The notes: generated from the sequence alone by a model not told the origin. A stretch of 64,000 nucleotides of DNA from Limisphaerales bacterium (GCA_044223735.1 JBGALR010000003.1:18128-82127); one strand, 5' to 3'; positions 1 to 11,821 are shown, counted from the stretch's first letter. A program made the numbers and translations.

Positions 1-317
1 TAGGTGTAATACAGTTGTGGCACCGGAGTGAAATCGGAACTGGGACTCGCGGTTGCGCCGGTGGGCGAGGTGTATTCGACGCCGGCGGAAACGAAGTAAA
101 CGCCCGCGCGAATTTGCTGTCCTTCCAGTTGCGTAATGCCCGCGGGGTTATAATAAACCGCCGACGGATTGTCCGCAGTCGCCGTAAAGGCGTTGCCGCG
201 GGAGATGGCTTGGGGGTCCTGATTCGGCAGCCGGAATCCCACGGCTCCCGCCACGGCAGGCCAAAGTGCGGCGGCGACCAACAGACGCACGGCATTACGG
301 ACGTTGTGCATTTTCAT
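1..317 (-). CDS. FadL/OmpP1/TodX-family outer-membrane long-chain fatty acid/hydrophobic compound channel (5' part only; runs off the window's left edge)
   Basis: Not in the ORF track. Manual minus-strand translation from the ATG at 317 gives MKMHNVRNAVRLLVAAALWPAVAGA|VGFRLPNQDPQAISRGNAFTATADNPSAVYYNPAGITQLEGQ. This is a signal peptide plus the FadL hatch signature (GF..., G.A..A.AD..S..YYNPAG), open to position 1. Confidence 0.9.
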   Translation of the reverse strand, partial: MKMHNVRNAVRLLVAAALWPAVAGAVGFRLPNQDPQAISRGNAFTATADNPSAVYYNPAGITQLEGQQIRAGVYFVSAGVEYTSPTGATASPSSDFTPVPQLYYT

Positions 318-479
318 ATGTTTGTTCTAGTTGAGTTTGAACATGTCCGGGGGTTGTGACCGGAATGTCCAGTGCTGACCCAAACCGGGACAACCTTAGT
401 GGGAACTCACGAAACCGAACCGTGCGCCACCCGCTAAAATGCCGTCTCGAAGTGCTTCCTGGGACAACGGGCGCATTTC

Positions 480-495
480 AGCAGAACTAATGCCA
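480..495 (-). promoter_or_regulatory. Candidate sigma-54 (-24/-12) promoter facing the FadL-like gene
   Basis: The minus strand reads TGGCATTAGTTCTGCT, with exact GG-N10-GC spacing and close to the TGGCAC-N5-TTGCW consensus. It lies about 165 bp upstream of the ATG at 317. Confidence 0.45.
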
Positions 496-704
496 ATGGC
501 GGCCGATGTCGCTGGGCATCCTATTTCCAATCATCGCGCTGACAACCCTATAAATGGGGGCTTTCGCCCAATTTGCTTTCCGGTTGGCGCGAAAAATGGT
601 AACGCTAGCGTATGCGCGAATCTCGGTTGGTCGATTCCGCATGAGGCCTGGCTTCGCCCGGGCATGCACAAAAACCGTGAGTCAGTGTTGGTACGCTGGA
701 TTAA

Positions 705-2123
705 ATGACCTCAACAAGCACAGCTGTGAAGGACAGTCTCGCCACGTTCGAGACGAGCCAGGGAACGCCGATGCGCGCGAACCTGCTGCGTTTTTCCCGA
801 CACCTCGCTGTCCTGGAACTTTACAATCCCGCCAGTGTGCTCCAGACGTCGGAGGTCCTAAGCGAATTTAAACTCATCCTCAACGACCGTCCCCTGTACG
901 CCGGTCGCGCGGTGGTGCGCAACATCATGAGCACCGGTTTGGTGATCGTTTGCGAAGTGACCCTGGATGACGCGTGGCTCGACGTGGATTTTTCTGCGGG
1001 CGTTCAGATGACAGAGAATCTCAACGAGCAATTCCAGGGATTCATCGCCGAGTGGCAAAAATTATATCGCGTCGCCCCGGAGTACAAGGTGGTGGTGGCG
1101 GACTTGCAGACTTTTCTCACGGACATCCGTCTCTGGCTGGAGCAAGTGGAGCTGGGCATTCGCGCCACGCCCACGGGCGATCGTAAGAAGCTGGAAGAAG
1201 ACTCGCTGCGCGGCCTGGAGAAATCCGTGGTGCCGTCCATACACAGTCTGTTCGAAAGATTTGAAGTCGTCTCGCAGGGTATAGCACCGGAACTGCGCCC
1301 CGCGCATGACGCGTTCGGCAAACGGCAGATTCATCCGTTGCTGCTGTGCTCGCCGTTTGTCTATCGCACATTCCAGAAGCCGCTCGGCTATGCCGGCGAT
1401 TATGAAATGGTGAACATGATGTTCCGCGAACCCTACGAAGGCGGCTCGTTGTTCGCGAAGATGATCAATACGTATGCGTTGCAACTGCCGCCGATTATCG
1501 CGCACCGCAACCGCATCGCCTTTTTGGAAGATCAACTGGTGAGGGAAACGGTGCGCATCGCGCCGCGCCAGCGGCTGGCGAGGGTTTTCACGCTCGGCTG
1601 CGGCCCCGCCCAGGAAGTACAGCGTTTTCTCGCGCGGGACGGCGTGGCGGAACGCGCGAGTTTTACGCTCGTGGATTTCAACGAGGAAACGCTGGCGCAT
1701 ACCAACAGCGTATTGACGGAATTGAAAAGCCGGCATCGGCGCGGCACGCCGATCAAATTGCTGAAGCAGTCGGTGCAGCAGATTTTGAAACAGGCGGACC
1801 GGGTGGTGCATCAACCGGCCGATCAATACGATTTCATTTATTGCGCCGGGCTGTTTGATTATCTTTCGGACAAGGTCTGTCGCAAGTTGATGGATATCTT
1901 TTACGACATGCTCGCGCCGGGCGGTCTGCTGCTGGCCACCAACGTGGACGTGCATCCGGCGGTGGGCGAGATGGAATGCTTTTTGGAATGGCACCTGATT
2001 CATCGCAATACCGAACAGATGGCCAAAGTCGCCCCGAGCCGGTCCGATCCGGACGAGGTGAAGTTGATTCGTGACCCAACCGGGGTGAACATATTCATGA
2101 CCGTTCGAAAACCCGAAGCGTGA
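705..2123 (+). CDS. phcB: PhcB-like class I SAM-dependent methyltransferase (3-hydroxy fatty acid methyl ester signal synthase family), with N-terminal beta-rich (PilZ-like) region
   Basis: 472 aa. Motifs KPLGYAGDYEMVN, AHRNR, SAM motif I LGCGPAQE, FIYCAGLFDYLSD and LEWHLIHR match my recollection of the Ralstonia PhcB family. The GTGA stop/start overlap with a membrane sensor kinase matches the phcB-phcS gene order. Confidence 0.75.
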   Translation: MTSTSTAVKDSLATFETSQGTPMRANLLRFSRHLAVLELYNPASVLQTSEVLSEFKLILNDRPLYAGRAVVRNIMSTGLVIVCEVTLDDAWLDVDFSAGVQMTENLNEQFQGFIAEWQKLYRVAPEYKVVVADLQTFLTDIRLWLEQVELGIRATPTGDRKKLEEDSLRGLEKSVVPSIHSLFERFEVVSQGIAPELRPAHDAFGKRQIHPLLLCSPFVYRTFQKPLGYAGDYEMVNMMFREPYEGGSLFAKMINTYALQLPPIIAHRNRIAFLEDQLVRETVRIAPRQRLARVFTLGCGPAQEVQRFLARDGVAERASFTLVDFNEETLAHTNSVLTELKSRHRRGTPIKLLKQSVQQILKQADRVVHQPADQYDFIYCAGLFDYLSDKVCRKLMDIFYDMLAPGGLLLATNVDVHPAVGEMECFLEWHLIHRNTEQMAKVAPSRSDPDEVKLIRDPTGVNIFMTVRKPEA

Positions 2124-4786
2124 GCACCTCCGTCCAATCCAAGACCGAAGCGCTGCGTAATTACGCCGATTACGAGAGCAAGATCACGGTAAAACACCTG
2201 GAGATCGGGTGCTTCCTCGTGATGGCGCTCATGCCCGTGGGGGTGGTGCTCGACTATTTCGTATATCCCGAGATGGTCGGCTACTTTTTCAAGCTGCGCC
2301 TGGCTTGCGTGGCGATGGAAGCATTCGTCTTGCTCCTGCTGCGCTCTTCCTCCAATCCGCGAACCCACCGGCTGCTCGGACTGCCCGTCGCGCTGCTGCC
2401 GGTATTTTTCATTTGCTGGATGATCGCCGTCACCAACGGCGCCGCCTCGCCTTATTACGCGGGGTTGAATCTGATTCTGCTCGCCATCGCCTTCGTGTTG
2501 CGCTGGGACGTTGGCTTGAGCCTGCTCGCTTTGTTTTTGATTTGCACGATGTACCTCGGGGCGTGCGGCCTGCATTATTTTGCGAACGGCCATCTCGGTG
2601 ACGGTGGTCGGGGCGTGTTCATCAACAATGTCTATTTCCTCTGCCTCACCGGCATCATCGTGGTGACGGGCAGCCGCATACATCGCGTGTTGCGCGAGCG
2701 GGAATTTGAGTTGCGTTATGAATTGGATAAAAACCGCGAGGCGCTTGAGGAGAGCAATCGCAAGCTGACTGAAAAGGACGAGTTCAAGAGCCGTTTCTTC
2801 GCCAACATCAGCCACGAACTGCGCACGCCGCTGACGTTGCTGATCGCGCCGATCGAGAACATGCTCCAACGCTTCCGCCTGGACCCGGAAACGAAGGAGT
2901 TGCTCGGCACCATGCATGCGAACGGCATGCGGTTGCTGAAGCTAATCAACGATTTGCTCGACCTCGTCCGTCTCGAATCCGGCCGCATGGAATTAAAGCA
3001 TGAGCCTCTGGAAGTGGGTGAATTCTTGAAGGGGCTGGCCAGCGCGGCACGACAGGTCGCGGACGACAAGCGCCTGCGCCTGGAGACTTTTGTGGATCCC
3101 GAGATTGGCACGGTGCAGGGCGACAAGGACAAGCTGGAAAAGGTTGTATTGAACCTCGTGTTCAATGCGCTGAAGTTTACCCCGGCGGGTGGCCGCGTCG
3201 AAATGCGCGCGGAAAAGAAGGGCGACCGTTGGGTGTTAACCGTGGCGGACACGGGCATGGGCATCTCGGCGAAAAATTTGCCGCACGTTTTCGACCGTTT
3301 CTGGCAGGCGGACGGTTCCTCGAAACGCAAGTACCAGGGGGTCGGCATCGGTCTGGCCCTCGTTAAGGAATTGGTGGAAGTGCAGGGCGGCCAGGTGACC
3401 GTGCAAAGCGAGGAAGGCAAAGGCACCACCTTTACCGTCAATCTTCCCTATGAGGAGGCGATCCCGCTGGAAAAATCAACTGCGGTGGCGCCCGAGGGTG
3501 TTCCGGCGGCCGCCAATGGTTTGGGTTCGGTAAGCTCCGAGGAATGGCTGGCCAATCTTTATCGCCGCGCGGAATTGTTCCCCGCGCTCACCCCGGTGCA
3601 GGAATCGATGCGGCCGGTGGAGACGATGCGCAACGGCAGTCTCCCCACCCTGCTCGTGGCTGACGACGAGCCGGACATGCTGCGCTTCCTGAAATCACAA
3701 TTGAGCCAGCATTACAACGTGCTCGAAGCCGTGGACGGCCAGCAAGCCGTTGAAAAGGCCAGCCAGTTTCTGCCCGACGTAATCCTGCTGGATATGATGA
3801 TGCCGGAGAAGGACGGCCTGCAGGCGTGCCGCGAAATTCGCGCGCACACGCCGACGCAGAGCATTCCGATCGTTTTGCTCACCGCCCGGGCGGACGAAGA
3901 AACCAAACTGAAGGCGTTGGAAGTGGGCGCGAGCGATTTCCTTTCGAAGCCGTTTTCGACCACCGAACTGCACGTCCGCATTCGCAATCTCGTGGAGTCG
4001 CACCAGTATCAGCGCAAGGTATCGAAGCAGAACCAGATTCTCGAATCGACGATCGATCAACTGAAGGACACCGAAACACAACTCGTACAGACCGAAAAGC
4101 TGGCCTCGCTGGGACGCATGAGCGCGGGCATCATTCACGAAATCAACAACCCCCTCAACTTTGCCACCACCGGCATTTTCACGCTCAAGAACAAGGGCAA
4201 ATACGTCGCTCCAGAACAGCAGGAGGAATACATGGATATCCTCAAGGACGTGGAAGAGGGAATCACGCGAGTGAAAAATATCGTGTCGGATTTGCGGATG
4301 TTCACGCATCCGGAAACCGAAAGCCGCGACCAGGTGGAAATCGCCGATGTCGTGTCCGCCGCCTTGCGGTTCCTCAGCAGTGAATGGAAGGACAAGGTTC
4401 GCATCGAACGAAACATGGTTGAGCATCAGACCATTTGGGCCAACAAAAACAAGCTCATTCATGTGCTCGTCAATCTGCTGCAAAACTCGCTCGACGCGAT
4501 GAAGTCGAAGACCTATGTGGACGAACAGCCGGCCATCTGGATCGAGGGTCGGGTGGAAAAAGAGCGAAGCATCCTGGTCGTTCGCGACAACGGCTCCGGC
4601 ATCGGCAAGGAGCATCTCGACAAGGTGTTTGATCCGTTCTTCACAACGAAGGACGTCGGCGAGGGTATGGGCCTGGGCCTGGCCATTTGTTACCGGATCG
4701 TGCAGGATTGCGAGGGGCGCATCACCGTGCGGACGGAGCAGGGTAAATTCTGTGAATTTACGCTGGAATTCCCTCGGAAAGGATGA
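2120..4786 (+). CDS. Membrane hybrid sensor histidine kinase, ~6TM-HisKA/HATPase-REC-HisKA/HATPase (PhcS-like sensor domain)
   Basis: 888 aa. Hydrophobic N-terminus containing SPYYAGLNLIL. First H-box ISHELRTPL with NALKFT, DTGMGI and GVGIGL. REC domain (VADDE, LLDMMMP, KPF). Second H-box IIHEINNPL with DNGSGI, FFTTK and GMGLGL. Confidence 0.9.
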   Translation: MSTSVQSKTEALRNYADYESKITVKHLEIGCFLVMALMPVGVVLDYFVYPEMVGYFFKLRLACVAMEAFVLLLLRSSSNPRTHRLLGLPVALLPVFFICWMIAVTNGAASPYYAGLNLILLAIAFVLRWDVGLSLLALFLICTMYLGACGLHYFANGHLGDGGRGVFINNVYFLCLTGIIVVTGSRIHRVLREREFELRYELDKNREALEESNRKLTEKDEFKSRFFANISHELRTPLTLLIAPIENMLQRFRLDPETKELLGTMHANGMRLLKLINDLLDLVRLESGRMELKHEPLEVGEFLKGLASAARQVADDKRLRLETFVDPEIGTVQGDKDKLEKVVLNLVFNALKFTPAGGRVEMRAEKKGDRWVLTVADTGMGISAKNLPHVFDRFWQADGSSKRKYQGVGIGLALVKELVEVQGGQVTVQSEEGKGTTFTVNLPYEEAIPLEKSTAVAPEGVPAAANGLGSVSSEEWLANLYRRAELFPALTPVQESMRPVETMRNGSLPTLLVADDEPDMLRFLKSQLSQHYNVLEAVDGQQAVEKASQFLPDVILLDMMMPEKDGLQACREIRAHTPTQSIPIVLLTARADEETKLKALEVGASDFLSKPFSTTELHVRIRNLVESHQYQRKVSKQNQILESTIDQLKDTETQLVQTEKLASLGRMSAGIIHEINNPLNFATTGIFTLKNKGKYVAPEQQEEYMDILKDVEEGITRVKNIVSDLRMFTHPETESRDQVEIADVVSAALRFLSSEWKDKVRIERNMVEHQTIWANKNKLIHVLVNLLQNSLDAMKSKTYVDEQPAIWIEGRVEKERSILVVRDNGSGIGKEHLDKVFDPFFTTKDVGEGMGLGLAICYRIVQDCEGRITVRTEQGKFCEFTLEFPRKG

Positions 4787-4938
4787 GATTACCTATGACC
4801 GGGAAACAAATGACTAATCGAATCAGGACAGCGCCGGGAGCGTTGTTGGCCGCCGCCGTTGGGGTGGCATTTCCGACGGTCTTCGCGTGCCGGGAAGACA
4901 GCGCCAATTTTTGAAACCTTTGATTTGAGCAGCGCCTT

Positions 4939-6204
4939 ATGCAAAACCTTTACGACTACAAGCGGTACGCGATTCTTTACGTTGACGACGAGGAGAAGTC
5001 GCTGAAGCAGTTCGCGCGTGCGTTTCAGGATCAATTTAAAATCTACACGGCTGCCAATGCGCAGGACGGGTTGAAACTGCTCGAACAGCACAAGGACGAA
5101 ATCGGCCTGTTGATGACGGACCAGCGGATGCCCGGCGAAAAAGGCGTCTGGCTGCTCGAGCGCGCCCGCCAGTTGCGTCCGCGCATTATTCGAATTCTCG
5201 CCACCGCTTACGCGGACATGGAGGCTGCCATTGCCGCCGTCAATACCGGGGCCATTTACAAATACGTCACCAAGCCGTGGGACCCGCCCCAGCTCGAAAA
5301 CACCCTGAAGCGCGGCCTCGAATTTTTCATGGTGCAGCATGAGCGCGACCAGTTGTTGAAGGAGAAGATGTCCGTCCTCCACAACATGATGATCGCCGAC
5401 CGGATCGTGAGCCTTGGTTTGCTCGCCGCCGGCCTGAGCCATCACATCCGCAACGCGCTGGTCGCGGTGAAAACCTTCCTGGATCTCGCCCCGTCCAAGA
5501 TGGAGGAGGAAAAGATTGACCTCGAAGGCCTTCGCAATCCGGATTTTTGGAAGGAATATTATACGAACGTCCAGGGGCAGATCGACAAGATCAACAACAT
5601 GTTGAAAGACCTGTGGACAGCGTCGGAAAAACCCGCGTTTGAGTTTTCCGACCAGGTACGTTTGCGCGAGGTGGTGGGAGAGACGATCGGACGGCTCAAG
5701 GACGGCTTCGCCGCGAAGAAAATTGAGGTGGTAAACGAGATTCCCGATTCACTGCCGGTGATGAACGTGGACAAGCACAAGTTTTACCGGCTTTTTGAAC
5801 TGTTGTTAAAGGACGAACTGGCCAGCCTGCCCGAAGGCAGCCGCGTCACCTTTGGCGCGAATGTTCACAACGGCGCGCCCTCGTCCAAACAGGAAATTGA
5901 GATCCGGATGAGCGACAACGGCCCTGGCCTGCCCAAAGAGGCCTTGCGGCTGGTGTTTGATCCGTTCGTGGTCCGCAGCGACAGCCCGATGGAGTACGGC
6001 ATCCATCTGATGGCGTGCTATTTCATCGTTCACCATCACAGTGGCAAGATCGATGCGAAAAGCGAGGAAGGGCAGGGCACGACCTTCACCTTGCGGCTGC
6101 CCGTAAATCCCGCCCACGTAGCCCCGGTCCAGAACGAGCATGAGTTTCTCCAGAAGGTGTTGCTTAGCGACAACCTCTGGGAAAAGCTTATCACTGCGGA
6201 TTAA
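4939..6204 (+). CDS. REC-histidine kinase hybrid response regulator (PhcR/PhcQ-like), with atypical ATP-binding domain
   Basis: 421 aa. REC domain (ILYVDDEEKSL, MTDQRMPG, TKPW). H-box LSHHIRNAL and DNGPG present. The N-box (LLLKDEL) and G2 box (EYGIHL) are degenerate. Confidence 0.85.
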   Translation: MQNLYDYKRYAILYVDDEEKSLKQFARAFQDQFKIYTAANAQDGLKLLEQHKDEIGLLMTDQRMPGEKGVWLLERARQLRPRIIRILATAYADMEAAIAAVNTGAIYKYVTKPWDPPQLENTLKRGLEFFMVQHERDQLLKEKMSVLHNMMIADRIVSLGLLAAGLSHHIRNALVAVKTFLDLAPSKMEEEKIDLEGLRNPDFWKEYYTNVQGQIDKINNMLKDLWTASEKPAFEFSDQVRLREVVGETIGRLKDGFAAKKIEVVNEIPDSLPVMNVDKHKFYRLFELLLKDELASLPEGSRVTFGANVHNGAPSSKQEIEIRMSDNGPGLPKEALRLVFDPFVVRSDSPMEYGIHLMACYFIVHHHSGKIDAKSEEGQGTTFTLRLPVNPAHVAPVQNEHEFLQKVLLSDNLWEKLITAD

Positions 6205-6554
6205 ATCGCCTGGAATGGGCGGGGTGGCGGAGGGGGGGACGCTTTCAGATCTCCTTCCGGTCGGGGAATAATCCCGGTGCGGCTTGCGTACTCACGCGGT
6301 CCAAAAATCCGTACTCCCCGTAATTGTTCCCCAAGTGCAATGCTGCTAATACTTTACGCCAACAAATGATTAATCAGTTGCCGGGCTAATAAGGAACTAG
6401 GGATGTTGGCTGCATACTTTGACAACTTTTCAGGGGCGCAACGCAATCTTGGGATTGCCACCGAAGGAAAAATGCTGCCTTATATCGACGGGGCGTTGTT
6501 ACGCTGCCGGGCGCAAGTGAGTTGTTTTTCGCGCCGGGCTGGGGGACGTGCATT

Positions 6555-8606
6555 ATGAAGACTTTATTAGTGCTGGCCGAACACCCCGATTTCGCCGAAG
6601 CCGTTCGGGTCGGGCTTAACCCCGATCAGTACCGGGTACTAAACCGTACCAGTATTGACGAGGCGGAGCCTTTGCTCGCGCACGGACTCGTGGACGCATG
6701 CATTGTGGACGTCGAAGTCGCAAGTGTTCAAGGTATCTGGTTCCTCGAAAAGCTGCGTCGCAAGAGCACCAAAATTCCCATCGTCATCTATACAGGCGCC
6801 AAGCAATGGGAGTGGGAGGAGGAGGCGTATCTGCAGGGTGTCGCTCATGTTCTCGGCAAGCCGGTGCGCCCGCGTCTGTTGTCGGCAGTACTCGAAAAAA
6901 TTCTCCCGACGGCTCCGCTCATGGCTCCGAGCCGTACCGCCCCACCCGTTGCGCCGTCGCTTTTTCCCGAGACGATCCGGCCCGCCGAGGGTGCCATGGC
7001 GGCGACCACCGCCCAGACGCTCAGCGTGCTCCGCGATTTTTCCGGCATCCTGACCCATTCGTTAAATGCGGAAGCGATGCTCCGGCAGTTCTTGCTGCTG
7101 CTCCGCGAAATTCTCAGCGTCAATCGCGCGGCCGTTTTTTTGCGGCAGCCGTTCGCCTCTTTTGGCGATTCCCCCGCGCTGGCGGAAAGCCGTCGTTTGC
7201 GTTCCGTGTCCGCGATTGGTATCTCACCGGGACTACTGCAGAATTTCGGTTTGTCCTTTGAAGGCGGCATCGGCGGCCATTTGTTCCGCCACGGCCGCAT
7301 CCTGCGTCGCTTCAGCGACGAGGCCCGGAACGACCTGGAGGCGCAAAAGGAATTTGAATTGCTCGGCTGCGAAGTGGCCGTGCCGATTCTGGATCGTGAA
7401 ACGGTTTTGGGGGTCGCTGTTTTTGATGGGCGCATCACCGGCGACCCGCTGGTGAACTCCGAACTGCAGTTGATTTTCCATTTGCTGGAACAGCTTGGTC
7501 TCGCGATCAAAAACATCTGGTTGCATGATCAGCTCGCCGGCAATCACCAGCTCATGGCCGACATCCTGCGGGAACTCAGCAGCGCTTGTGTCGTCGTGGG
7601 TCGTGACCTCACGATCCTGCACGCCAACAAGACCGCGCGTAAATATTTCTTCCGCAATGAGCGCCGGGGCGGTGATATGGAGTTTAGCGATCTGCCGCAG
7701 GCGCTCGGCGCCAAAACCTACCAGGTGCTCAAGACCGGCGCCGCCGTCTCAAGTTTTCGCTATGAACCCGAGGAGTCTCCCGGGACGATTTACAGCATTA
7801 CCATCGTGCCCTTCCAGCGGCAGCAGGCTGGTTTGCCCGCCTCGGCCCTCTTGATGGCGGAAGACCTCACGCAGAGCGAGAATTTGCAACGCCTGGAAAT
7901 CGAAGCCGCCAACCTGCGGCTCGTCAAAACCATGGCCGACCGGATGACGCACGAAATCGGCAATGCCATGGTGCCGCTCTCCACGCACCAGCAATTGCTG
8001 GCCGACAAGTGGAAGGACCCCGAATTTCGCGCGTCGCTCAACGTCGCGCTCGCCGACGGCGTCAAGCGCGTCACGCGCCTCATCAATCAGATGCGCTTCC
8101 TGGCCCGGGACGCCCTGGCGTCGGCGGAGGCATTCCCGCTGGAACCGCTCATTGAGGAGGCCTACCAGGAAGCGTGCAAGCATCAACCCGCCAAAGCCGC
8201 CCAGCTTAAGTACGATACCGGCAGCAAGCCGATTTTTGTGACCGGCGACCGCGCCGCTTTGAAACACGCGCTGGCTGAAGTGATGTTGAATGCGCTTCAG
8301 GCCAACCCGGCCGATCCGAAGATCGGGATTCATCTTCAAGCCGAGGCCACCGGTGGCAACGGTTTGCGCGGCTTGCAAATTGAAGTCCAGGACAACGGCG
8401 GCGGATTTTCCGCCGAAGCGGTCAAGAAAGCGTTCGTGCCATTTTTCACCACGCGCAACGTTGGGTTGGGACTGGGCTTGACCGTCAGCCACAAGATCAT
8501 CGAAACCCACCACGGCAAGGTGGAAATTCTTCCCTCTAAAGCGGGTCAAGCGGGTCTGGTGCGCATCTCGCTTCCTCTGGATTCGTCACTCAGCCTGCCT
8601 GCTTGA
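6555..8606 (+). CDS. Cytoplasmic hybrid kinase, REC-GAF-PAS-HisKA/HATPase
   Basis: ATG at 6555 (MKTLLVLAEH) preferred to the TTG at 6522. REC-like N-terminus, Pro-rich linker, GAF (VAVPILDRETVLGV), PAS (ILHANKTA), H-box THEIGNAM, NALQA, DNGGG, FFTTR and GLGLGL. Confidence 0.88.
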   Translation: MKTLLVLAEHPDFAEAVRVGLNPDQYRVLNRTSIDEAEPLLAHGLVDACIVDVEVASVQGIWFLEKLRRKSTKIPIVIYTGAKQWEWEEEAYLQGVAHVLGKPVRPRLLSAVLEKILPTAPLMAPSRTAPPVAPSLFPETIRPAEGAMAATTAQTLSVLRDFSGILTHSLNAEAMLRQFLLLLREILSVNRAAVFLRQPFASFGDSPALAESRRLRSVSAIGISPGLLQNFGLSFEGGIGGHLFRHGRILRRFSDEARNDLEAQKEFELLGCEVAVPILDRETVLGVAVFDGRITGDPLVNSELQLIFHLLEQLGLAIKNIWLHDQLAGNHQLMADILRELSSACVVVGRDLTILHANKTARKYFFRNERRGGDMEFSDLPQALGAKTYQVLKTGAAVSSFRYEPEESPGTIYSITIVPFQRQQAGLPASALLMAEDLTQSENLQRLEIEAANLRLVKTMADRMTHEIGNAMVPLSTHQQLLADKWKDPEFRASLNVALADGVKRVTRLINQMRFLARDALASAEAFPLEPLIEEAYQEACKHQPAKAAQLKYDTGSKPIFVTGDRAALKHALAEVMLNALQANPADPKIGIHLQAEATGGNGLRGLQIEVQDNGGGFSAEAVKKAFVPFFTTRNVGLGLGLTVSHKIIETHHGKVEILPSKAGQAGLVRISLPLDSSLSLPA

Positions 8607-8865
8607 TCGGGCAGGTTGCCCCATGCGGAGATCAGCTGCCTAAAGAAAGGGAAGGCGGGGGGCTGGTTATTTCCTGAATCTCCCATTTCATCAGCGGGAA
8701 TTTTCCCCCTCGGCGCGTCTCGCGCGTCGAAACGCCAGGTCTTCGTCAGGACACAACCCCATCTTTCCGCTTGTCGCCCGTTGTGGGCGTCTGGTAGAGT
8801 CGCTTCCTGCCGGACCAATCGGTGATGGTGTTGGTTCTGTTCTCAGACGAATTGAACATTTTACG

Positions 8866-10149
8866 ATGGCCGCCTCGTTGACATTAGACGCGATTCCGCC
8901 GCTTGCGCCTGCGGCTTCCTACCCAAAAAGCAAAGGCGTCTTGATGATCGTGGATGATGAGGACGGCGCAAGGCAGTCCCTCCGGGTCATTTTCAAGGAC
9001 GAATACGAAATTCTTATGGCGGGCGACGGAGCCAGTGCCATCAAGCTCGCCCAGGAAAACAAGATCGACGTCGTCGTGTGCGACGTCCGCATGGCCGGCA
9101 TGTCGGGTATCGAGGTGTTGGAACGGTTGAAATTCGTCAACCCCGACATTGAAGTCGTGATGATGACCGCTTTCGAGACGACCGACACCATGCGGCAGGC
9201 ATTGCGACTGCGCGCCTGCGATTACATCAACAAACCGTTCGATGTTTCCACGATGCGTGCCGCGGTGGCCAACGCGATGCAGCGTCACACGCTCGAAAGC
9301 GAAATCCACACGAATGCCGAAAAGCTTCAACAGTTGCTCGGCGAATTACAAAACCAGAAAATCGAGGAAAAGATGGCGCACACGCGCGGCGAAATTTACG
9401 CCAGCATCATCCACGACATCAACGGCCCGCTCACGGTCATCTCCGGCTTCATCCAGTTGATGAACCAGCGCATCGGCGATGCCACCGTACTGGAGGAAAA
9501 CGACCTGACTTTCGTCAAGGATCGCTTGCGCACTATCACGCGGCAGGTCACGAATTGCATCGAGATTTCGCGCCGTTACCTTGGCTTCCTGCGGCGTCAG
9601 TCGGATGACGTGCCCCGGGTTGGCGTGAATCAATTGCTCGCGGACCTCAGTCATCTCGTCCAGGTCCATCCGAGCCTGCACACCAACCAATTCCACGTTC
9701 GTCCGCTGCCCGAGGATATCGCCGTCCGCATGAACGGCACCGATGTCATTCAGATTCTGTTGAACCTGGCCGTGAATGGTTTTCAGTGCTCGCCTCACTC
9801 CCATTCCGTGCAAATCGAAGCCCGCGTGTTGCGGGAACCGGTGGATTTGGCGCAGATCAAGGACGGCCCGGAGGAACGCCTGCTCAATGTGGAAAATTTT
9901 GAAAATGCCACGCCGTTGTTGATGGTGGCCGTGCGCGACACGGGGCCGGGAATCCCGCCCGAGATTTTGCCGAAGATTTTTCAGCTCTACTTCACCACGA
10001 AAGGCGCTCGCCACGGCACCGGACTGGGCTTGAATATCGTTCAGCGTCTGGTGAAGGAAGCCAAGGGAGCGCTGCACATTCACACACGGCAGGGCGAAGG
10101 CACGACATTTACCATTTATCTTCCCGCCGTGAATTTGCCTCAGGCCTAA
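8866..10149 (+). CDS. REC-histidine kinase hybrid
   Basis: 427 aa. REC domain (IVDDE, VCDVRM, NKPF), H-box IIHDINGPL, NLAVNG, DTGPGI, YFTTK and GTGLGL. Confidence 0.9.
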   Translation: MAASLTLDAIPPLAPAASYPKSKGVLMIVDDEDGARQSLRVIFKDEYEILMAGDGASAIKLAQENKIDVVVCDVRMAGMSGIEVLERLKFVNPDIEVVMMTAFETTDTMRQALRLRACDYINKPFDVSTMRAAVANAMQRHTLESEIHTNAEKLQQLLGELQNQKIEEKMAHTRGEIYASIIHDINGPLTVISGFIQLMNQRIGDATVLEENDLTFVKDRLRTITRQVTNCIEISRRYLGFLRRQSDDVPRVGVNQLLADLSHLVQVHPSLHTNQFHVRPLPEDIAVRMNGTDVIQILLNLAVNGFQCSPHSHSVQIEARVLREPVDLAQIKDGPEERLLNVENFENATPLLMVAVRDTGPGIPPEILPKIFQLYFTTKGARHGTGLGLNIVQRLVKEAKGALHIHTRQGEGTTFTIYLPAVNLPQA

Positions 10150-10162
10150 ACGCTCGAAAAGG

Positions 10163-10567
10163 TCAGGACGCGGGAACCGCGCGGCTCCGGCAGTCGTTGC
10201 AAAAAAACTCCCGGCCGGTAAAAAAAGCCTCCACAGACGACATTCGCCCCCCGCAACGGTCGCAAAATTCGAACGTTTCGCTGGGATCCAGGCGAATGGC
10301 GACCCAGACCGTCCCATACACTCGCCGCACGAGCCGAATCTGCTCCACGACATGGTCCTTCGCGTAATCGAACACCTTGGCCAGGCTCCGGTCTTCCGTG
10401 AAGTTCCAGTGCGCCGCCGTGCCCGCGAGATATTGTCCATCTTCGTTTACGATCAGAACCTTGATCGTTTCCGATTCATTCATCCGCGCGGAAGATAGCT
10501 CCGCCTTGGCCGCTGGGCAAACGACCTGTTCGACTGGCTCGAAACTTGAGTCAGCGTTAACCGCCAT
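10163..10567 (-). CDS. Small hypothetical protein with C-terminal CxxC...CxxC zinc ribbon
   Basis: Contains FCDRCG...FCNDC. It follows the REC-Hpt-REC gene closely on the same strand. The start is uncertain (ATG 10567 or ATG 10483). Confidence 0.6.
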   Translation of the reverse strand: MAVNADSSFEPVEQVVCPAAKAELSSARMNESETIKVLIVNEDGQYLAGTAAHWNFTEDRSLAKVFDYAKDHVVEQIRLVRRVYGTVWVAIRLDPSETFEFCDRCGGRMSSVEAFFTGREFFCNDCRSRAVPAS

Positions 10568-10588
10568 GAATATGTAACCCAATGCCGC

Positions 10589-11821
10589 TTATCGTGCGGC
10601 GCCGAGTGGTTCGGGTATCTGGCTTTTTAAAAGATGGGTGACGGCTTTTACCGCCAGTTCCATCGGGAAAACAGGTTTTGAGATAAGGTCGCCGCCGCCG
10701 CTCAGGATGCTCTTGGCGCGATTTTCAAAATCGGCATGGGCGCTCACGTAGATGACGGGTGTCCGCTGGTAACCGGGTAACAGGCGCAAGCGGCGGCAGA
10801 CTTCAAAGCCGTCCATGCTCGGCATTTCGATATCAAGCAGCACGAGGTCGTACGGCGTTTCTTCCATCATGTGGAGGGCCAGCAACGGATCCTGCGTGCA
10901 TCGCGCCTCGATTTGCGCGCGTTGCAGCCCGGCGGCCACCAGGCGATTGGAGAGGGGATCATCGTCCACCACGAGGGCCTTGGCCATAACGCCGTCGTTG
11001 GTCTCGCTTTCCACCACCCGATCAAACAGTTTCCCGATAAAGTCCACGGCCGAGGCGATGGTTCGCGATACGGAAGGACTCATGTACTGCTGTTTGTTGG
11101 TCAGTTCGAAGAGCAGGGCTTCAAAGGCGCTGGCCATTTGTGCGAGTTGATGACAACCCGCCAGACCGGCGGCGCCGGCGATGAAATGGAGTTTCCGGCT
11201 GAAGTTCTGAATCTGGATACCGCGTTCGGCTTCGCTGGAAGCACTGGTCACCGCCTGACAAAGACTGCGCAATGAGGCATACGTCGCCGGCGCATTTTCG
11301 AGCAGGCTCCGACGCGCTTTCGCTTGAAATTTGATGGCGGAGGAGTCGCTTTCCATCTCCGCTTCCACGGCCTTCAGGGCGCTCATTGACCTGAGGGCTT
11401 CCGGTGATTCCTTTGGCACCGCGAGTTGGAAACTCGAATCCACGATTGACGACTTGCCGGAAAGAATGTCATTGATGACTTCGATTAGCGACGAGGGAGT
11501 ACAACGGACTTTGAGCAGCGCCTTTTGCACGCCCAACGCCACTGCCTGTCGCGCCACGTCGTTTGCGTACGAATTGGAAAGGACCACCACGGGCAAATCA
11601 CCCAGGGTGCCGGGTCCGCGGATAAACTTCAGCACGTCCACACCGGTGAACCGCGGCATCATCAGGTCCAGCACCACGAGGTCCGGGCGCGTCTTGCGCA
11701 ATGCCTGGATTGCGGCTACGCCGTCCGAGGCCGCTTCGACCCGCACGCCCTGATTCGTCAGGCCCTCCTGGTAAAGGCGCAGTACCAACGGATCATCATC
11801 CACCAATAAAATTGTCTTCAT
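10589..11821 (-). CDS. REC-Hpt-REC phosphorelay protein
   Basis: 410 aa. First REC (LLVDDD, LDLMMP), a helical middle with Hpt-type motif KLHFIAGAAGLAG, and a second REC (LVVDDD, LDIEMP, SKP). No DNA-binding domain. Confidence 0.85.
   Translation of the reverse strand: MKTILLVDDDPLVLRLYQEGLTNQGVRVEAASDGVAAIQALRKTRPDLVVLDLMMPRFTGVDVLKFIRGPGTLGDLPVVVLSNSYANDVARQAVALGVQKALLKVRCTPSSLIEVINDILSGKSSIVDSSFQLAVPKESPEALRSMSALKAVEAEMESDSSAIKFQAKARRSLLENAPATYASLRSLCQAVTSASSEAERGIQIQNFSRKLHFIAGAAGLAGCHQLAQMASAFEALLFELTNKQQYMSPSVSRTIASAVDFIGKLFDRVVESETNDGVMAKALVVDDDPLSNRLVAAGLQRAQIEARCTQDPLLALHMMEETPYDLVLLDIEMPSMDGFEVCRRLRLLPGYQRTPVIYVSAHADFENRAKSILSGGGDLISKPVFPMELAVKAVTHLLKSQIPEPLGAAR

What the first reader, a model, noticed from the sequence alone, without database searches (positions are those of the whole stretch)
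1..11821. Candidate phc-type (fatty acid methyl ester) quorum-sensing locus outside Ralstonia, with an adjacent FadL-like channel
Seen: a methyltransferase overlapping (GTGA) a membrane sensor kinase, followed by a REC-HK protein, with a FadL/OmpP1 channel transcribed divergently from the same 390 bp spacer. Established: Ralstonia phcBSRQ makes and senses 3-OH PAME/3-OH MAME through the SAM methyltransferase PhcB, sensor PhcS and regulators PhcR/PhcQ; FadL channels move hydrophobic molecules across the outer membrane. Inference: this is a synthase-sensor-relay-channel module for a lipid signal in a probable verrucomicrobium, where I know of no characterised system of this kind. The phc assignment rests on recalled motifs and gene order, not on a search.
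Basis: partly seen in the sequence, partly recalled or inferred. Interest (0 to 1): 0.8.

Follow-up and report, generated by a model that had tools for sequence, protein, structure and literature searches.

The report
Phc-type lipid-signal cassette with FadL channel
A Verrucomicrobiota genome carries full-length relatives of the Ralstonia/Cupriavidus phcB-phcS-phcR quorum-sensing genes next to a FadL outer-membrane channel, so methyl-ester-type lipid signalling probably exists well outside the plant pathogens where it was found, although no signal molecule has been shown.

Summary
A FadL-family gene (401 aa, only its start lies in the window) is divergent across a 387-bp spacer from a 472-aa methyltransferase. 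The methyltransferase overlaps by GTGA an 888-aa membrane hybrid kinase, and a 421-aa REC-kinase follows.

- **Methyltransferase:** full-length PhcB-family member, 37% identical to the Cupriavidus necator protein (E 9e-104).
- **Sensor:** its six-helix membrane domain matches PhcS-type (Pfam MASE8) sensors.
- **REC-kinase:** its receiver is the genome's best match to a Paraburkholderia PhcQ-like regulator (39%, E 3e-42).

Across 80 related loci, nearly all labelled Verrucomicrobiota:

- the methyltransferase-sensor pair is present in 80 of 80;
- the REC-kinase follows in 56 of 62 evaluable loci;
- a FadL gene lies within 1 kb upstream in 37 of 65 evaluable loci.

Differences from Ralstonia are a separate methyltransferase clade, a kinase-receiver module inserted into the sensor, extra relay kinases, and no PhcQ C-terminal region found. 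PhcA was not tested.

The methyltransferase N-terminus has a PilZ fold (Z 10.3). The product is untested. No R. solanacearum sequence was available, so proxies were used.

Annotation pipelines already name such proteins PhcB/PhcS, and this scan has reported the same cassette on other genomes. I rate it a new variant of a known kind.

The parts
1..317 (-). 5' part (first 105 codons) of a 401-aa FadL/OmpP1/TodX-family outer-membrane channel gene. The rest lies left of the window (G000:C17:17239-18444).
   Evidence: Pfam Toluene_X E 4.6e-46 for the whole gene and E 3.5e-8 for the fragment. One of only 2 FadL-like genes in the genome.
318..704 (.). 387-bp divergent spacer between the FadL gene and the methyltransferase gene. 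It holds a partly conserved block near 575-600.
   Evidence: Sequence read. Alignment with 5 relatives (mean column identity 43%, one conserved block). No Pfam hit for the small ORFs 439..708 and 3..359.
705..2123 (+). PhcB-family SAM-dependent methyltransferase, 472 aa. Domains: PilZ-fold beta-barrel (about 11-88), helical bundle (about 102-290), Rossmann methyltransferase domain (about 292-468). Proposed signal synthase.
   Evidence: 37% identity, E 9e-104 to the C. necator protein. (model pLDDT 85.8). (PilZ domains, Z 9.4-10.3). (tree).
2120..4786 (+). Hybrid sensor kinase, 888 aa. Domains: six-helix MASE8/PhcS-type membrane domain (about 27-185), HisKA-HATPase (H-box SHELRTP at 231), REC (about 512-621), and a second PhcS-like HisKA-HATPase (H-box IHEINNP at 672). 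The start overlaps the methyltransferase stop (GTGA).
   Evidence: (28% identity over residues 10-443 to the Paraburkholderia PhcS-like protein, E 2e-32; second kinase core 31%, E 8e-42). (short homologues carry PF20968 and the JGI name PhcS).
4939..6204 (+). REC-histidine-kinase hybrid, 421 aa, with PhcR-like architecture and a PhcR/PhcQ-type receiver.
   Evidence: Pfam. Genome-wide best hit of the Paraburkholderia PhcQ-like regulator; pairwise 39% over 203 aa, E 3e-42. Follows the sensor in 56 of 62 evaluable loci.
6522..8606 (+). REC-GAF-PAS-histidine kinase, 694 aa from the first TTG (true start not determined). Further relay or integration step.
   Evidence: Pfam. A roughly 680-aa counterpart lies at the same place in the nearest relatives, for example L002, L003, L005, L016, L018, L057, L058 and L059.
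8866..10149 (+). Second REC-histidine-kinase hybrid, 427 aa.
   Evidence: Pfam. Counterparts at 56-79% identity in L002, L018, L057 and L058.
10589..11821 (-). REC-Hpt-REC phosphotransfer protein, 410 aa, convergent with the operon. Whether it belongs to the cassette is not established.
   Evidence: Pfam Response_reg (two stretches) and Hpt (E 2.6e-5). Conservation could not be tested because the flanks of the related loci end before this position.

Best explanation
This is a phc-type signal cassette: a synthase, a membrane sensor, a phosphorelay and an outer-membrane channel.

Shown by homology and synteny: the 472-aa enzyme belongs to the PhcB family, the next gene encodes a PhcS-type membrane sensor, and the third gene encodes a PhcR-like REC-kinase.

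Inferred mechanism:
1. The methyltransferase uses SAM to methylate the carboxyl group of a fatty-acid-derived molecule, most likely a hydroxy fatty acid. This makes a hydrophobic, diffusible methyl ester.
2. The ester partitions into membranes and is sensed inside the bilayer by the six-helix MASE8 domain of the sensor.
3. The sensor autophosphorylates at its first kinase core and passes the phosphate to its own receiver. This gates its second, PhcS-like kinase core.
4. That core phosphorylates the receiver of the 421-aa REC-kinase, as LvrA does with LvrB. The signal then moves on through the further REC-kinases to an output that is not in this locus.
5. The FadL channel helps the hydrophobic signal cross the outer membrane, most likely inward for perception.

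The PilZ-fold N-terminal domain of the synthase is probably a regulatory or docking domain.
For: **Family membership**
- P0001 is 37% identical to the C. necator protein over 456 aa, E 9e-104.
- It is 36-39% identical to 14 Burkholderiales proteins, with invariant motifs along the whole length, including KPLGYAGDY, GCGPA, and D324/F325/E328/T329 (in P0001: DFNEET).
- About 55 of the 120 listed homologues carry JGI's KEGG PhcB name (my count).
- C. necator Phc products are 56-75% identical to those of R. solanacearum (PMC2842291, passages).

**Sensor**
- The full-length alignment with the Paraburkholderia PhcS-like protein includes the membrane domain.
- 23 of the 120 listed short homologues of the membrane domain are named PhcS by JGI, and nearly all carry MASE8.
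- Six hydrophobic segments are separated by short loops.

**Receiver**
- Genome-wide best hit to the PhcQ-like regulator at E 4.6e-37, against 4.6e-13 for the next receiver.

**Synteny**
- The sensor follows the methyltransferase in 80 of 80 loci, mostly with a 4- or 8-base overlap.
- The REC-kinase follows in 56 of 62 evaluable loci. In 5 of the other 6 its best match also adjoins or overlaps the sensor ORF, but as a fragment or an over-long ORF.
- A FadL gene lies within 1 kb upstream in 37 of 65 loci (13 divergent, 24 co-directional). Six more have one within the upstream flank. In four loci an OprB porin takes that place.

**Divergence pattern**
- The membrane domain is the least conserved part (median 38% identity) and the sensor's receiver the most conserved (73%) over 55 loci. 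This fits a ligand-specificity domain.

**Precedents**
- PhcB makes 3-OH MAME/PAME and PhcS senses it (PMC6989110 and PMC7694676, passages).
- FadL mediates uptake of long-chain AHL signals (PMC9938287, passages).
- LvrA phosphorylates LvrB (PMC5863495, passages).
Against: - No chemistry or expression data exist for this locus. No RNA run was listed.
- The methyltransferase lies outside the Burkholderiales clade that holds the studied enzymes (that clade has SH-aLRT 99 and a branch length of 2.11). At 37% identity the substrate may differ.
- No R. solanacearum sequence was available, so all comparisons go through Cupriavidus and Paraburkholderia proxies.
- No match to the C-terminal part of the PhcQ-like protein was found in the genome. 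PhcA was not tested. No DNA-binding output lies in the locus.
- FadL is missing from the upstream side in 28 of 65 loci and from the Paraburkholderia locus.
- Methyltransferase and membrane-domain divergence do not co-vary beyond shared descent (partial r 0.16, p 0.25).
- The family is patchy: 15 of 401 sampled genomes of the phylum have a match, and this count includes the window's own genome.
Confidence: 0.6

Rival explanations
1. The genes are homologous to phc, but the system is not cell-to-cell signalling. The sensor monitors an envelope or environmental lipid taken up through FadL. The methyltransferase modifies or detoxifies that lipid, for example by esterifying free fatty acids. The cassette would then be a lipid-stress or nutrient-sensing circuit.
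For: FadL channels are classically uptake channels for exogenous hydrophobic compounds (PMC7728783, search listing only). Some related loci carry lipid-metabolism genes instead of FadL: enoyl-ACP reductase in L041, and LPG_synthase_C-like genes in L063 and L078. No output regulator or PhcA-like gene is tied to the locus. No co-variation of methyltransferase and sensor was detected.
Against: The strict pairing and translational coupling of enzyme and sensor in 80 of 80 loci is the pattern of synthase-receptor pairs. The only studied members of both families are a signal synthase and its receptor (PMC7694676, passages). The genome has a single copy of each.
Confidence: 0.22
2. It is a true signal system, but the signal is chemically different from 3-hydroxy fatty acid methyl esters. 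It could have another chain type, or be another carboxylate or hydroxyl substrate.
For: The clade is separate from the Burkholderiales enzymes. The membrane domain diverges strongly, with a median identity of 38%. Some relatives have private acyl-building genes upstream, such as the ketoreductase and phosphopantetheinyl transferase genes in L066. The C-terminal 300 aa have a homologue at the end of a type I polyketide synthase.
Against: Conservation runs the full length, including the helical domain that would hold the substrate, with invariant residues shared with the Burkholderiales proteins. This is a sub-case of the best explanation, not a contradiction of it.
Confidence: 0.3
3. The methyltransferase is a protein methyltransferase of the CheR kind. 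It would adapt the kinase by methylating it and would make no small molecule.
For: There is a weak Pfam CheR hit (E 0.0061, 16.4 bits against a cutoff of 27). Many homologues carry a precomputed PF01739 hit. A Deinococcus homologue is annotated CheR.
Against: The CheR hit is below the cutoff and covers only the shared SAM-binding fold. The best structural matches are small-molecule methyltransferases such as SgvM, Rv2258c, NodS and DnrK. The studied family members make a small molecule (PMC6989110, passages).
Confidence: 0.04

Closest known systems
[quoted passage not shown]
   Same: The gene order is the same: methyltransferase, membrane sensor kinase, REC-kinase. The methyltransferase is homologous along its full length (37-39% identity). 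The sensor has a homologous MASE8-type membrane domain and kinase core. The receiver is homologous to the PhcQ/PhcR type. Short-form loci (L004, L006, L008, L014, L028, L052, L054, L063) have a roughly 455-535-aa sensor followed by a roughly 420-aa REC-kinase, as in PhcS-PhcR.
   Different: The methyltransferase clade is separate. The sensor carries an extra HisKA-HATPase-REC module between the membrane domain and the PhcS-like kinase core. Two further REC-kinases and a REC-Hpt-REC gene follow. No match to the PhcQ C-terminal region was found. A FadL or OprB channel gene is adjacent in most loci, but not in the Paraburkholderia locus. PhcA was not assessed and the product is unknown.
LvrA/LvrB of pathogenic Leptospira (kinase-REC-kinase hybrid plus REC-controlled kinase)
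   Same: The sensor's cytoplasmic part aligns with the NCBIfam LvrA model over residues 198-885 (E 7.7e-96). The REC-kinases hit the LvrB model. The architecture is the same: kinase-REC-kinase followed by REC-kinase. LvrA phosphorylates LvrB (PMC5863495, passages). LvrB is described as a prototype of REC-controlled kinases (PMC13269768, abstract start only).
   Different: Scores are far below the model cutoffs (321.9 bits against 1200). LvrA is cytoplasmic with a PAS sensor and no membrane region. That paper mentions no methyltransferase (0 occurrences).
[quoted passage not shown]
   Same: A FadL-family outer-membrane channel serves a hydrophobic quorum-sensing signal (PMC9938287, passages). 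That paper cites Krol and Becker 2014, which I saw only as a reference entry.
   Different: There the signal is an AHL, and, as far as I recall, the fadL gene is not part of the synthase-receptor locus. Here the channel gene is physically linked to the cassette, and its role is untested.
Membrane-embedded receptors of hydrophobic autoinducers (CqsS, LqsS, LuxN)
   Same: A polytopic membrane domain with short loops is joined to a kinase and encoded next to its synthase. This resemblance is recalled and was not tested here.
   Different: No sequence relationship was tested. Their synthases belong to other enzyme classes.

Membership tests
PhcB family (signal-synthase methyltransferase) | Full-length homology to accepted PhcB orthologues: N-terminal domain, helical domain and class I methyltransferase domain | tested here: met
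   37% identity over 456 of 472 aa to the C. necator protein, E 9e-104. 39% identity over 96% of the length to the Paraburkholderia graminis plasmid gene. 51 invariant columns across 32 sequences from both groups.
PhcB family (signal-synthase methyltransferase) | Placement inside the clade that holds the experimentally studied enzymes (Ralstonia, Cupriavidus) | tested here: not met
   In the quick IQ-TREE of 48 rows, the 12 Burkholderiales rows form their own clade (SH-aLRT 99, branch length 2.11). The window's protein sits in a verrucomicrobial clade. All full-length proteins are split from 4 shorter outgroups with support 81.
PhcB family (signal-synthase methyltransferase) | Direct reciprocal comparison with R. 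solanacearum PhcB itself | not tested
The link rests on Cupriavidus proteins, reported as 56-75% identical to those of R. solanacearum (PMC2842291, passages).
PhcB family (signal-synthase methyltransferase) | Product is methyl 3-hydroxymyristate or methyl 3-hydroxypalmitate | not testable with these tools
   This needs expression and GC-MS.
PhcS (signal sensor kinase) | Polytopic MASE8-type membrane domain joined to a histidine kinase, encoded directly after the methyltransferase | tested here: met
   Aligns with the Paraburkholderia PhcS-like protein over residues 10-443, E 2e-32. Short homologues carry PF20968, and 23 of the 120 listed are named PhcS by JGI. GTGA overlap with the methyltransferase gene. 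The window's own membrane region did not hit the local Pfam MASE8 model at E<=10.
PhcR (REC with C-terminal kinase) | Receiver domain followed by a histidine-kinase module instead of a DNA-binding domain, encoded after the sensor | tested here: met
   REC-HisKA-HATPase. The architecture is as described in PMC2842291 (passages). The receiver is 39% identical to the Paraburkholderia PhcQ-like regulator, E 3e-42. Orthology to PhcR itself was not tested because no PhcR sequence was in hand.
PhcQ and PhcA (remaining parts of the Phc system) | A PhcQ-type regulator (receiver plus non-kinase C-terminal region) and the LysR regulator PhcA | tested here: inconclusive
   tblastn of the Paraburkholderia PhcQ-like protein against the genome found no hit reaching beyond its residue 204. 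PhcA was not tested because no sequence was available.
FadL/OmpP1/TodX outer-membrane channels | Match to Pfam Toluene_X above the gathering score | tested here: met
   157.6 bits against a cutoff of 29.7, E 4.6e-46, over residues 22-365 of 401.
LvrA/LvrB | NCBIfam model scores above cutoff | tested here: not met
   LvrA model 321.9 bits against a cutoff of 1200. LvrB model 59.4 and 91.8 bits against 500. The architecture is similar, but these are not members.
PilZ domain (c-di-GMP receptor) | PilZ beta-barrel fold | tested here: met
   Model of residues 1-110, pLDDT 79.5. The six best of 48,161 chains are all PilZ domains (MrkH, YcgR twice, PP4397, Alg44, MotI): Z 9.4-10.3, rmsd 2.5-3.4, 88-100 residues aligned.
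PilZ domain (c-di-GMP receptor) | Sequence membership and the c-di-GMP-binding motifs (RxxxR and D/NxSxxG; motifs recalled) | tested here: not met
   No Pfam PilZ hit at E<=10 for residues 1-281. Reading the sequence, I found neither motif in register. c-di-GMP binding is therefore doubtful.

The most novel reading that the evidence does not exclude
Verrucomicrobiota and other environmental phyla use a family of phc-type lipid-ester signals as cell-to-cell 'dialects'. Perception would depend on a dedicated outer-membrane channel (FadL or OprB) encoded with the synthase and receptor. The synthase would be controlled through a PilZ-fold domain. The fast-diverging membrane domain, channel and synthase would set the dialect, while the relay stays constant. 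On this reading the compact Burkholderiales phcBSRQ operon is a streamlined offshoot of this larger, older family.
Probability: 0.3. Interest if true: 0.75.

Novelty: new variant of a known kind. Interest (0 to 1): 0.55.

Why it matters
In the papers I saw, Phc signalling is treated as a speciality of Ralstonia and its close relatives. Here the same three core genes form a conserved cassette in a phylum for which my searches found no described quorum-sensing system of this type. Near-identical DNA occurs in one independent activated-sludge run (X2).

If the enzyme makes a diffusible methyl ester, this would open a testable signalling chemistry for Verrucomicrobiota. The linked FadL gene would give a genetic handle on how a hydrophobic signal crosses the outer membrane. 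Cultured carriers such as Pelagicoccus, strain DG1235 and Prosthecobacter would allow experiments.

The PilZ-fold domain also suggests how PhcB-type synthases, including the Ralstonia one, might be regulated.

Tried and rejected
- **R. solanacearum sequences.** I could not obtain them. The plasmid collection held only a Paraburkholderia copy. The top 120 homologues of that copy were Paraburkholderia, Cupriavidus, Massilia and others, but not Ralstonia. The genome-contig scan kept only the 80 best loci, none from Burkholderiales.
- **Pfam and NCBIfam.** They gave no family for the methyltransferase N-terminal 270 aa or for the window's membrane domain.
- **Foldseek on the whole model.** It gave only generic methyltransferase matches.
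- **Co-variation of methyltransferase and sensor membrane domain.** No signal once relay divergence is controlled (partial r 0.16, p 0.25, 55 loci, kin not independent).
- **FadL profile.** A profile built from 44 FadL hits found no further adjacent FadL genes in the 28 loci that lacked one.
- **Promoter and terminator scan.** It found no more sites than shuffled sequence: 3 against 4.4 expected, and 13 against 17.1 expected.
- **Expression.** No RNA holder was listed for the locus.
- **Literature.** Searches for phc together with Verrucomicrobia, K19620, metagenomes or FadL found no paper on such systems outside Burkholderiales. A 'phcB' hit in a cyanobacterial preprint was the name of an incubator maker.
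- **Not run.** No complex prediction, because no binding claim is made. No search of protein representatives.

Full report
**What is there**

The left 12 kb of the window holds, in order:
- the first 105 codons of a minus-strand gene that runs off the window (3..317);
- a 387-bp spacer;
- a 472-aa gene (705..2123);
- an 888-aa gene whose GTG start overlaps the previous TGA stop as GTGA (2120..4786);
- a 421-aa gene (4939..6204), a 694-aa gene (6522..8606) and a 427-aa gene (8866..10149), all on the plus strand;
- a convergent 410-aa gene (10589..11821).

The window is G000:C17:18128-82127. In the genome the truncated gene is a 401-aa FadL/OmpP1/TodX channel (Pfam Toluene_X, E 4.6e-46).

Pfam assigns the rest as follows:
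- the 472-aa protein has a class I methyltransferase domain at residues 274-434 and nothing in its first 270 residues;
- the 888-aa protein is HisKA-HATPase, REC, HisKA-HATPase behind an unassigned N-terminus;
- the next three proteins are REC-kinase, REC-GAF-PAS-kinase and REC-kinase;
- the last is REC-Hpt-REC.

**Is the methyltransferase a PhcB?**

- A search of 5.8 billion proteins gave 5,579 hits at E<=0.001 among the 8,000 candidates scored. The closest is 73% identical. About 55 of the 120 listed rows (my count) carry JGI's name 'extracellular factor 3-hydroxypalmitic acid methyl ester biosynthesis protein', which is the KEGG PhcB name. NCBI-named rows are from Pedosphaera, Verrucomicrobiota and the like.
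- In the plasmid collection, 1 of 143 matching records covers most of the protein. It is a Paraburkholderia graminis plasmid gene (39% identity, 96% coverage) followed by a 445-aa kinase, a 134-aa receiver and a 344-aa receiver protein, which is a phcBSRQ-like operon.
- That Paraburkholderia protein is about 68% identical to Cupriavidus proteins, including one from C. necator. The window's protein is 37% identical to the C. necator protein over 456 residues (E 9e-104).
- A genome paper states that C. necator JMP134 has a complete Phc system whose products are 56-75% identical to those of R. solanacearum. [quoted passage not shown]
- In a 32-sequence alignment of verrucomicrobial and Burkholderiales proteins, 51 columns are invariant, spread over all three domains.
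- In a tree of 48 rows, the Burkholderiales proteins form one well-supported clade on a long branch. The window's protein sits in a verrucomicrobial clade with Limisphaerales-labelled relatives. All full-length proteins are separated from four shorter homologues used as outgroup (support 81). Monophyly of the verrucomicrobial rows is unresolved.

So it is a member of the PhcB family, but not of the clade that holds the studied enzymes. I never had an R. solanacearum sequence, so this step rests on proxies.

**Sensor and relay**

The 888-aa protein aligns with the Paraburkholderia PhcS-like kinase from residue 10 to 443, including the membrane region (28% identity, E 2e-32). Its second kinase core (633-886) is the closer match to the PhcS-like core (31%, E 8e-42). 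Hydropathy shows about six membrane segments between residues 27 and 185, with short loops.

Shorter proteins that share this membrane region number 233 at E<=0.001. Nearly all of the 120 listed carry Pfam MASE8 (PF20968). JGI names 23 of them PhcS and one a C4-dicarboxylate kinase.

The long sensor therefore reads as a PhcS-type membrane domain plus a PhcS-type kinase core, with a classical HisKA-HATPase-REC module in between. Eight related loci have the short form (about 455-535 aa, membrane domain plus the PhcS-like core) followed by a roughly 420-aa REC-kinase. That is the PhcS-PhcR layout.

The 421-aa REC-kinase is the genome-wide best match of the Paraburkholderia PhcQ-like regulator (E 4.6e-37, against 4.6e-13 for the next receiver). 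Pairwise it is 39% identical over 203 residues, E 3e-42. No hit reaches the C-terminal part of the PhcQ-like protein.

The cytoplasmic part of the sensor and the REC-kinases resemble Leptospira LvrA and LvrB in architecture, but score far below the model cutoffs. LvrA is cytoplasmic and phosphorylates LvrB (PMC5863495, passages).

**Conservation of the neighbourhood**

Of these, 577 encode a relative, and the best 80 loci were kept. Nearly all are labelled Verrucomicrobiota, including cultured strain DG1235 and a Pelagicoccus isolate, plus Prosthecobacter-labelled MAGs.

- **Sensor.** An ORF homologous to the sensor's first 200 residues follows the methyltransferase in all 80 loci. Overlaps of 4 or 8 bases are the commonest arrangement. 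L066 is the exception, with a 1.4-kb gap.
- **REC-kinase.** Its orthologue follows directly in 56 of 62 loci with enough downstream sequence. In 5 of the other 6 its best match also adjoins or overlaps the sensor ORF, but as a fragment or an over-long ORF.
- **FadL.** Among 65 loci with at least 1.5 kb upstream, a FadL-like ORF ends within 1 kb of the methyltransferase start in 37 (13 divergent, 24 co-directional). Six more have one elsewhere in the upstream flank.
- **The other 28 loci.** The adjacent gene is an OprB porin in 4 and a REC-kinase in 6. Lipid-related genes occur in a few: enoyl-ACP reductase in L041, ketoreductase plus phosphopantetheinyl transferase in L066, and LPG_synthase_C-like genes in L063 and L078, which have FadL just beyond.

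The adjacent FadL proteins range from 24% to 62% identity to the window's, so different FadL subtypes occupy the same place. The Paraburkholderia locus has no FadL gene within 8 kb upstream.

The family is patchy. Fifteen of 401 sampled genomes of the window's phylum, the window's own genome included, have a match at E<=1e-40, in 9 of 185 genera.

**Structure**

The AlphaFold model (pLDDT 85.8, pTM 0.72) shows a beta-barrel (11-88), a helical bundle (102-290) and a Rossmann domain (292-468). Foldseek finds a Bordetella structural-genomics protein (3ocj) first, then small-molecule methyltransferases.

Folded alone, residues 1-110 (pLDDT 79.5) match PilZ domains as the six best of 48,161 chains (Z 9.4-10.3). 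No Pfam PilZ hit appears, and the c-di-GMP motifs (recalled from memory) are not evident. I read it as a PilZ-fold regulatory or docking domain.

A published R22C change in the N-terminal part of Ralstonia PhcB, outside the methyltransferase domain, alters quorum-sensing dynamics. Signal synthesis is also affected in a phcQ mutant (PMC6989110, passages). Both fit a regulatory role for this domain.

**Divergence pattern**

Against the nearest relative (L002), identity by part is as follows:

| Part | Identity to L002 |
|---|---|
| FadL | 62% |
| Methyltransferase domains | 66-77% |
| Sensor membrane domain | 59% |
| Sensor kinase cores | 80-81% |
| Two receivers | 90% |

Over 55 loci the membrane domain is the least conserved part (median 38%) and the sensor's receiver the most conserved (73%). 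This fits a specificity-determining membrane domain. However, a test for methyltransferase-sensor co-variation beyond shared descent was negative.

**Mechanism and status**

Shown:
- homology of the three core genes to the phc genes;
- their strict linkage;
- frequent linkage to an outer-membrane channel gene.

Inferred:
- the enzyme makes a hydrophobic methyl ester;
- the MASE8 domain senses it in the membrane;
- the phosphate passes through the kinase-REC-kinase sensor to the REC-kinase and beyond;
- FadL eases passage of the signal across the outer membrane, as FadL does for long-chain AHLs (PMC9938287, passages).

The output is unknown. No RNA evidence was available.

**Novelty**

I found no paper on phc-type systems outside Burkholderiales. 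Annotation pipelines already attach the PhcB and PhcS names to such proteins. This scan has reported the same cassette, with and without FadL, on at least ten other genomes.

I rate it a new variant of a known kind. The variant features are the inserted kinase-receiver module, the longer relay, the linked channel and the separate enzyme clade. The PilZ-fold assignment of the N-terminal domain is an addition that I did not see in the papers I read.

Noticed in passing
window 575-600 (in the 318..704 spacer): A block reading roughly TTGGCG(Y)G(R)AAAATGGT, about 105-130 bases upstream of the methyltransferase start, is the only well-conserved stretch when the spacer is aligned with those of five relatives. 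It could be a promoter or regulator site. It does not fit the sigma-70 scan.
   Followed up: partly
L003:6358-7812, L016:6423-7841, L045:2432-3814, L054:6419-7843: In four related loci an OprB-family porin gene (Pfam E 1e-52 to 3e-71) sits directly upstream of the methyltransferase gene, where FadL sits elsewhere.
   Followed up: partly
L063:6320-7744, L078:6393-7985: A gene with the C-terminal domain of phosphatidylglycerol lysyltransferase (LPG_synthase_C, E 7e-32 and 1e-33) lies between the FadL gene and the methyltransferase gene.
   Followed up: no
L066:6013-7910 and 9422-10854: In a locus labelled candidate division FCPU426, a ketoreductase and a phosphopantetheinyl transferase gene precede the methyltransferase gene. 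A 1.4-kb gap separates the methyltransferase from the sensor, the only such gap among 80 loci.
   Followed up: no
L081:4213-9922: This looks like a decayed copy. An IS110-family transposase gene lies between FadL and the methyltransferase gene, the methyltransferase ORF is shortened (389 aa), and the sensor is split into many short ORFs.
   Followed up: no
L086:3001-3888; L085:398-3756: The C-terminal roughly 300 residues of the methyltransferase have a homologue (27% identity) at the very end of a type I polyketide synthase on an Enterobacter ludwigii plasmid. A stand-alone homologue on a Deinococcus plasmid is annotated CheR and lies three genes after a fatty-acid desaturase gene.
   Followed up: no
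L003, L014, L015, L031, L055, L077 (record titles): Several loci titled Limnocylindrales, Bifidobacteriaceae or Akkermansia muciniphila group tightly with verrucomicrobial environmental loci in the tree and in synteny. The labels are probably binning or naming errors.
   Followed up: no
G033:C13:6811-8184 and G249:C35:9908-11281: Two matches of the methyltransferase in genomes of one genus each contain a single in-frame stop, one TGA and one TAG. The genes may be broken or there may be sequencing errors.
   Followed up: no
window 300-6300: Apart from the possible source sample, one independent run labelled activated sludge holds about half of the sampled words of this stretch (X2, share 0.52). 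Ten further runs, of which one is from the possible source sample, hold 0.23-0.41 of the words and are labelled bioreactor, wastewater, activated sludge or aquaculture. None was laid.
   Followed up: no
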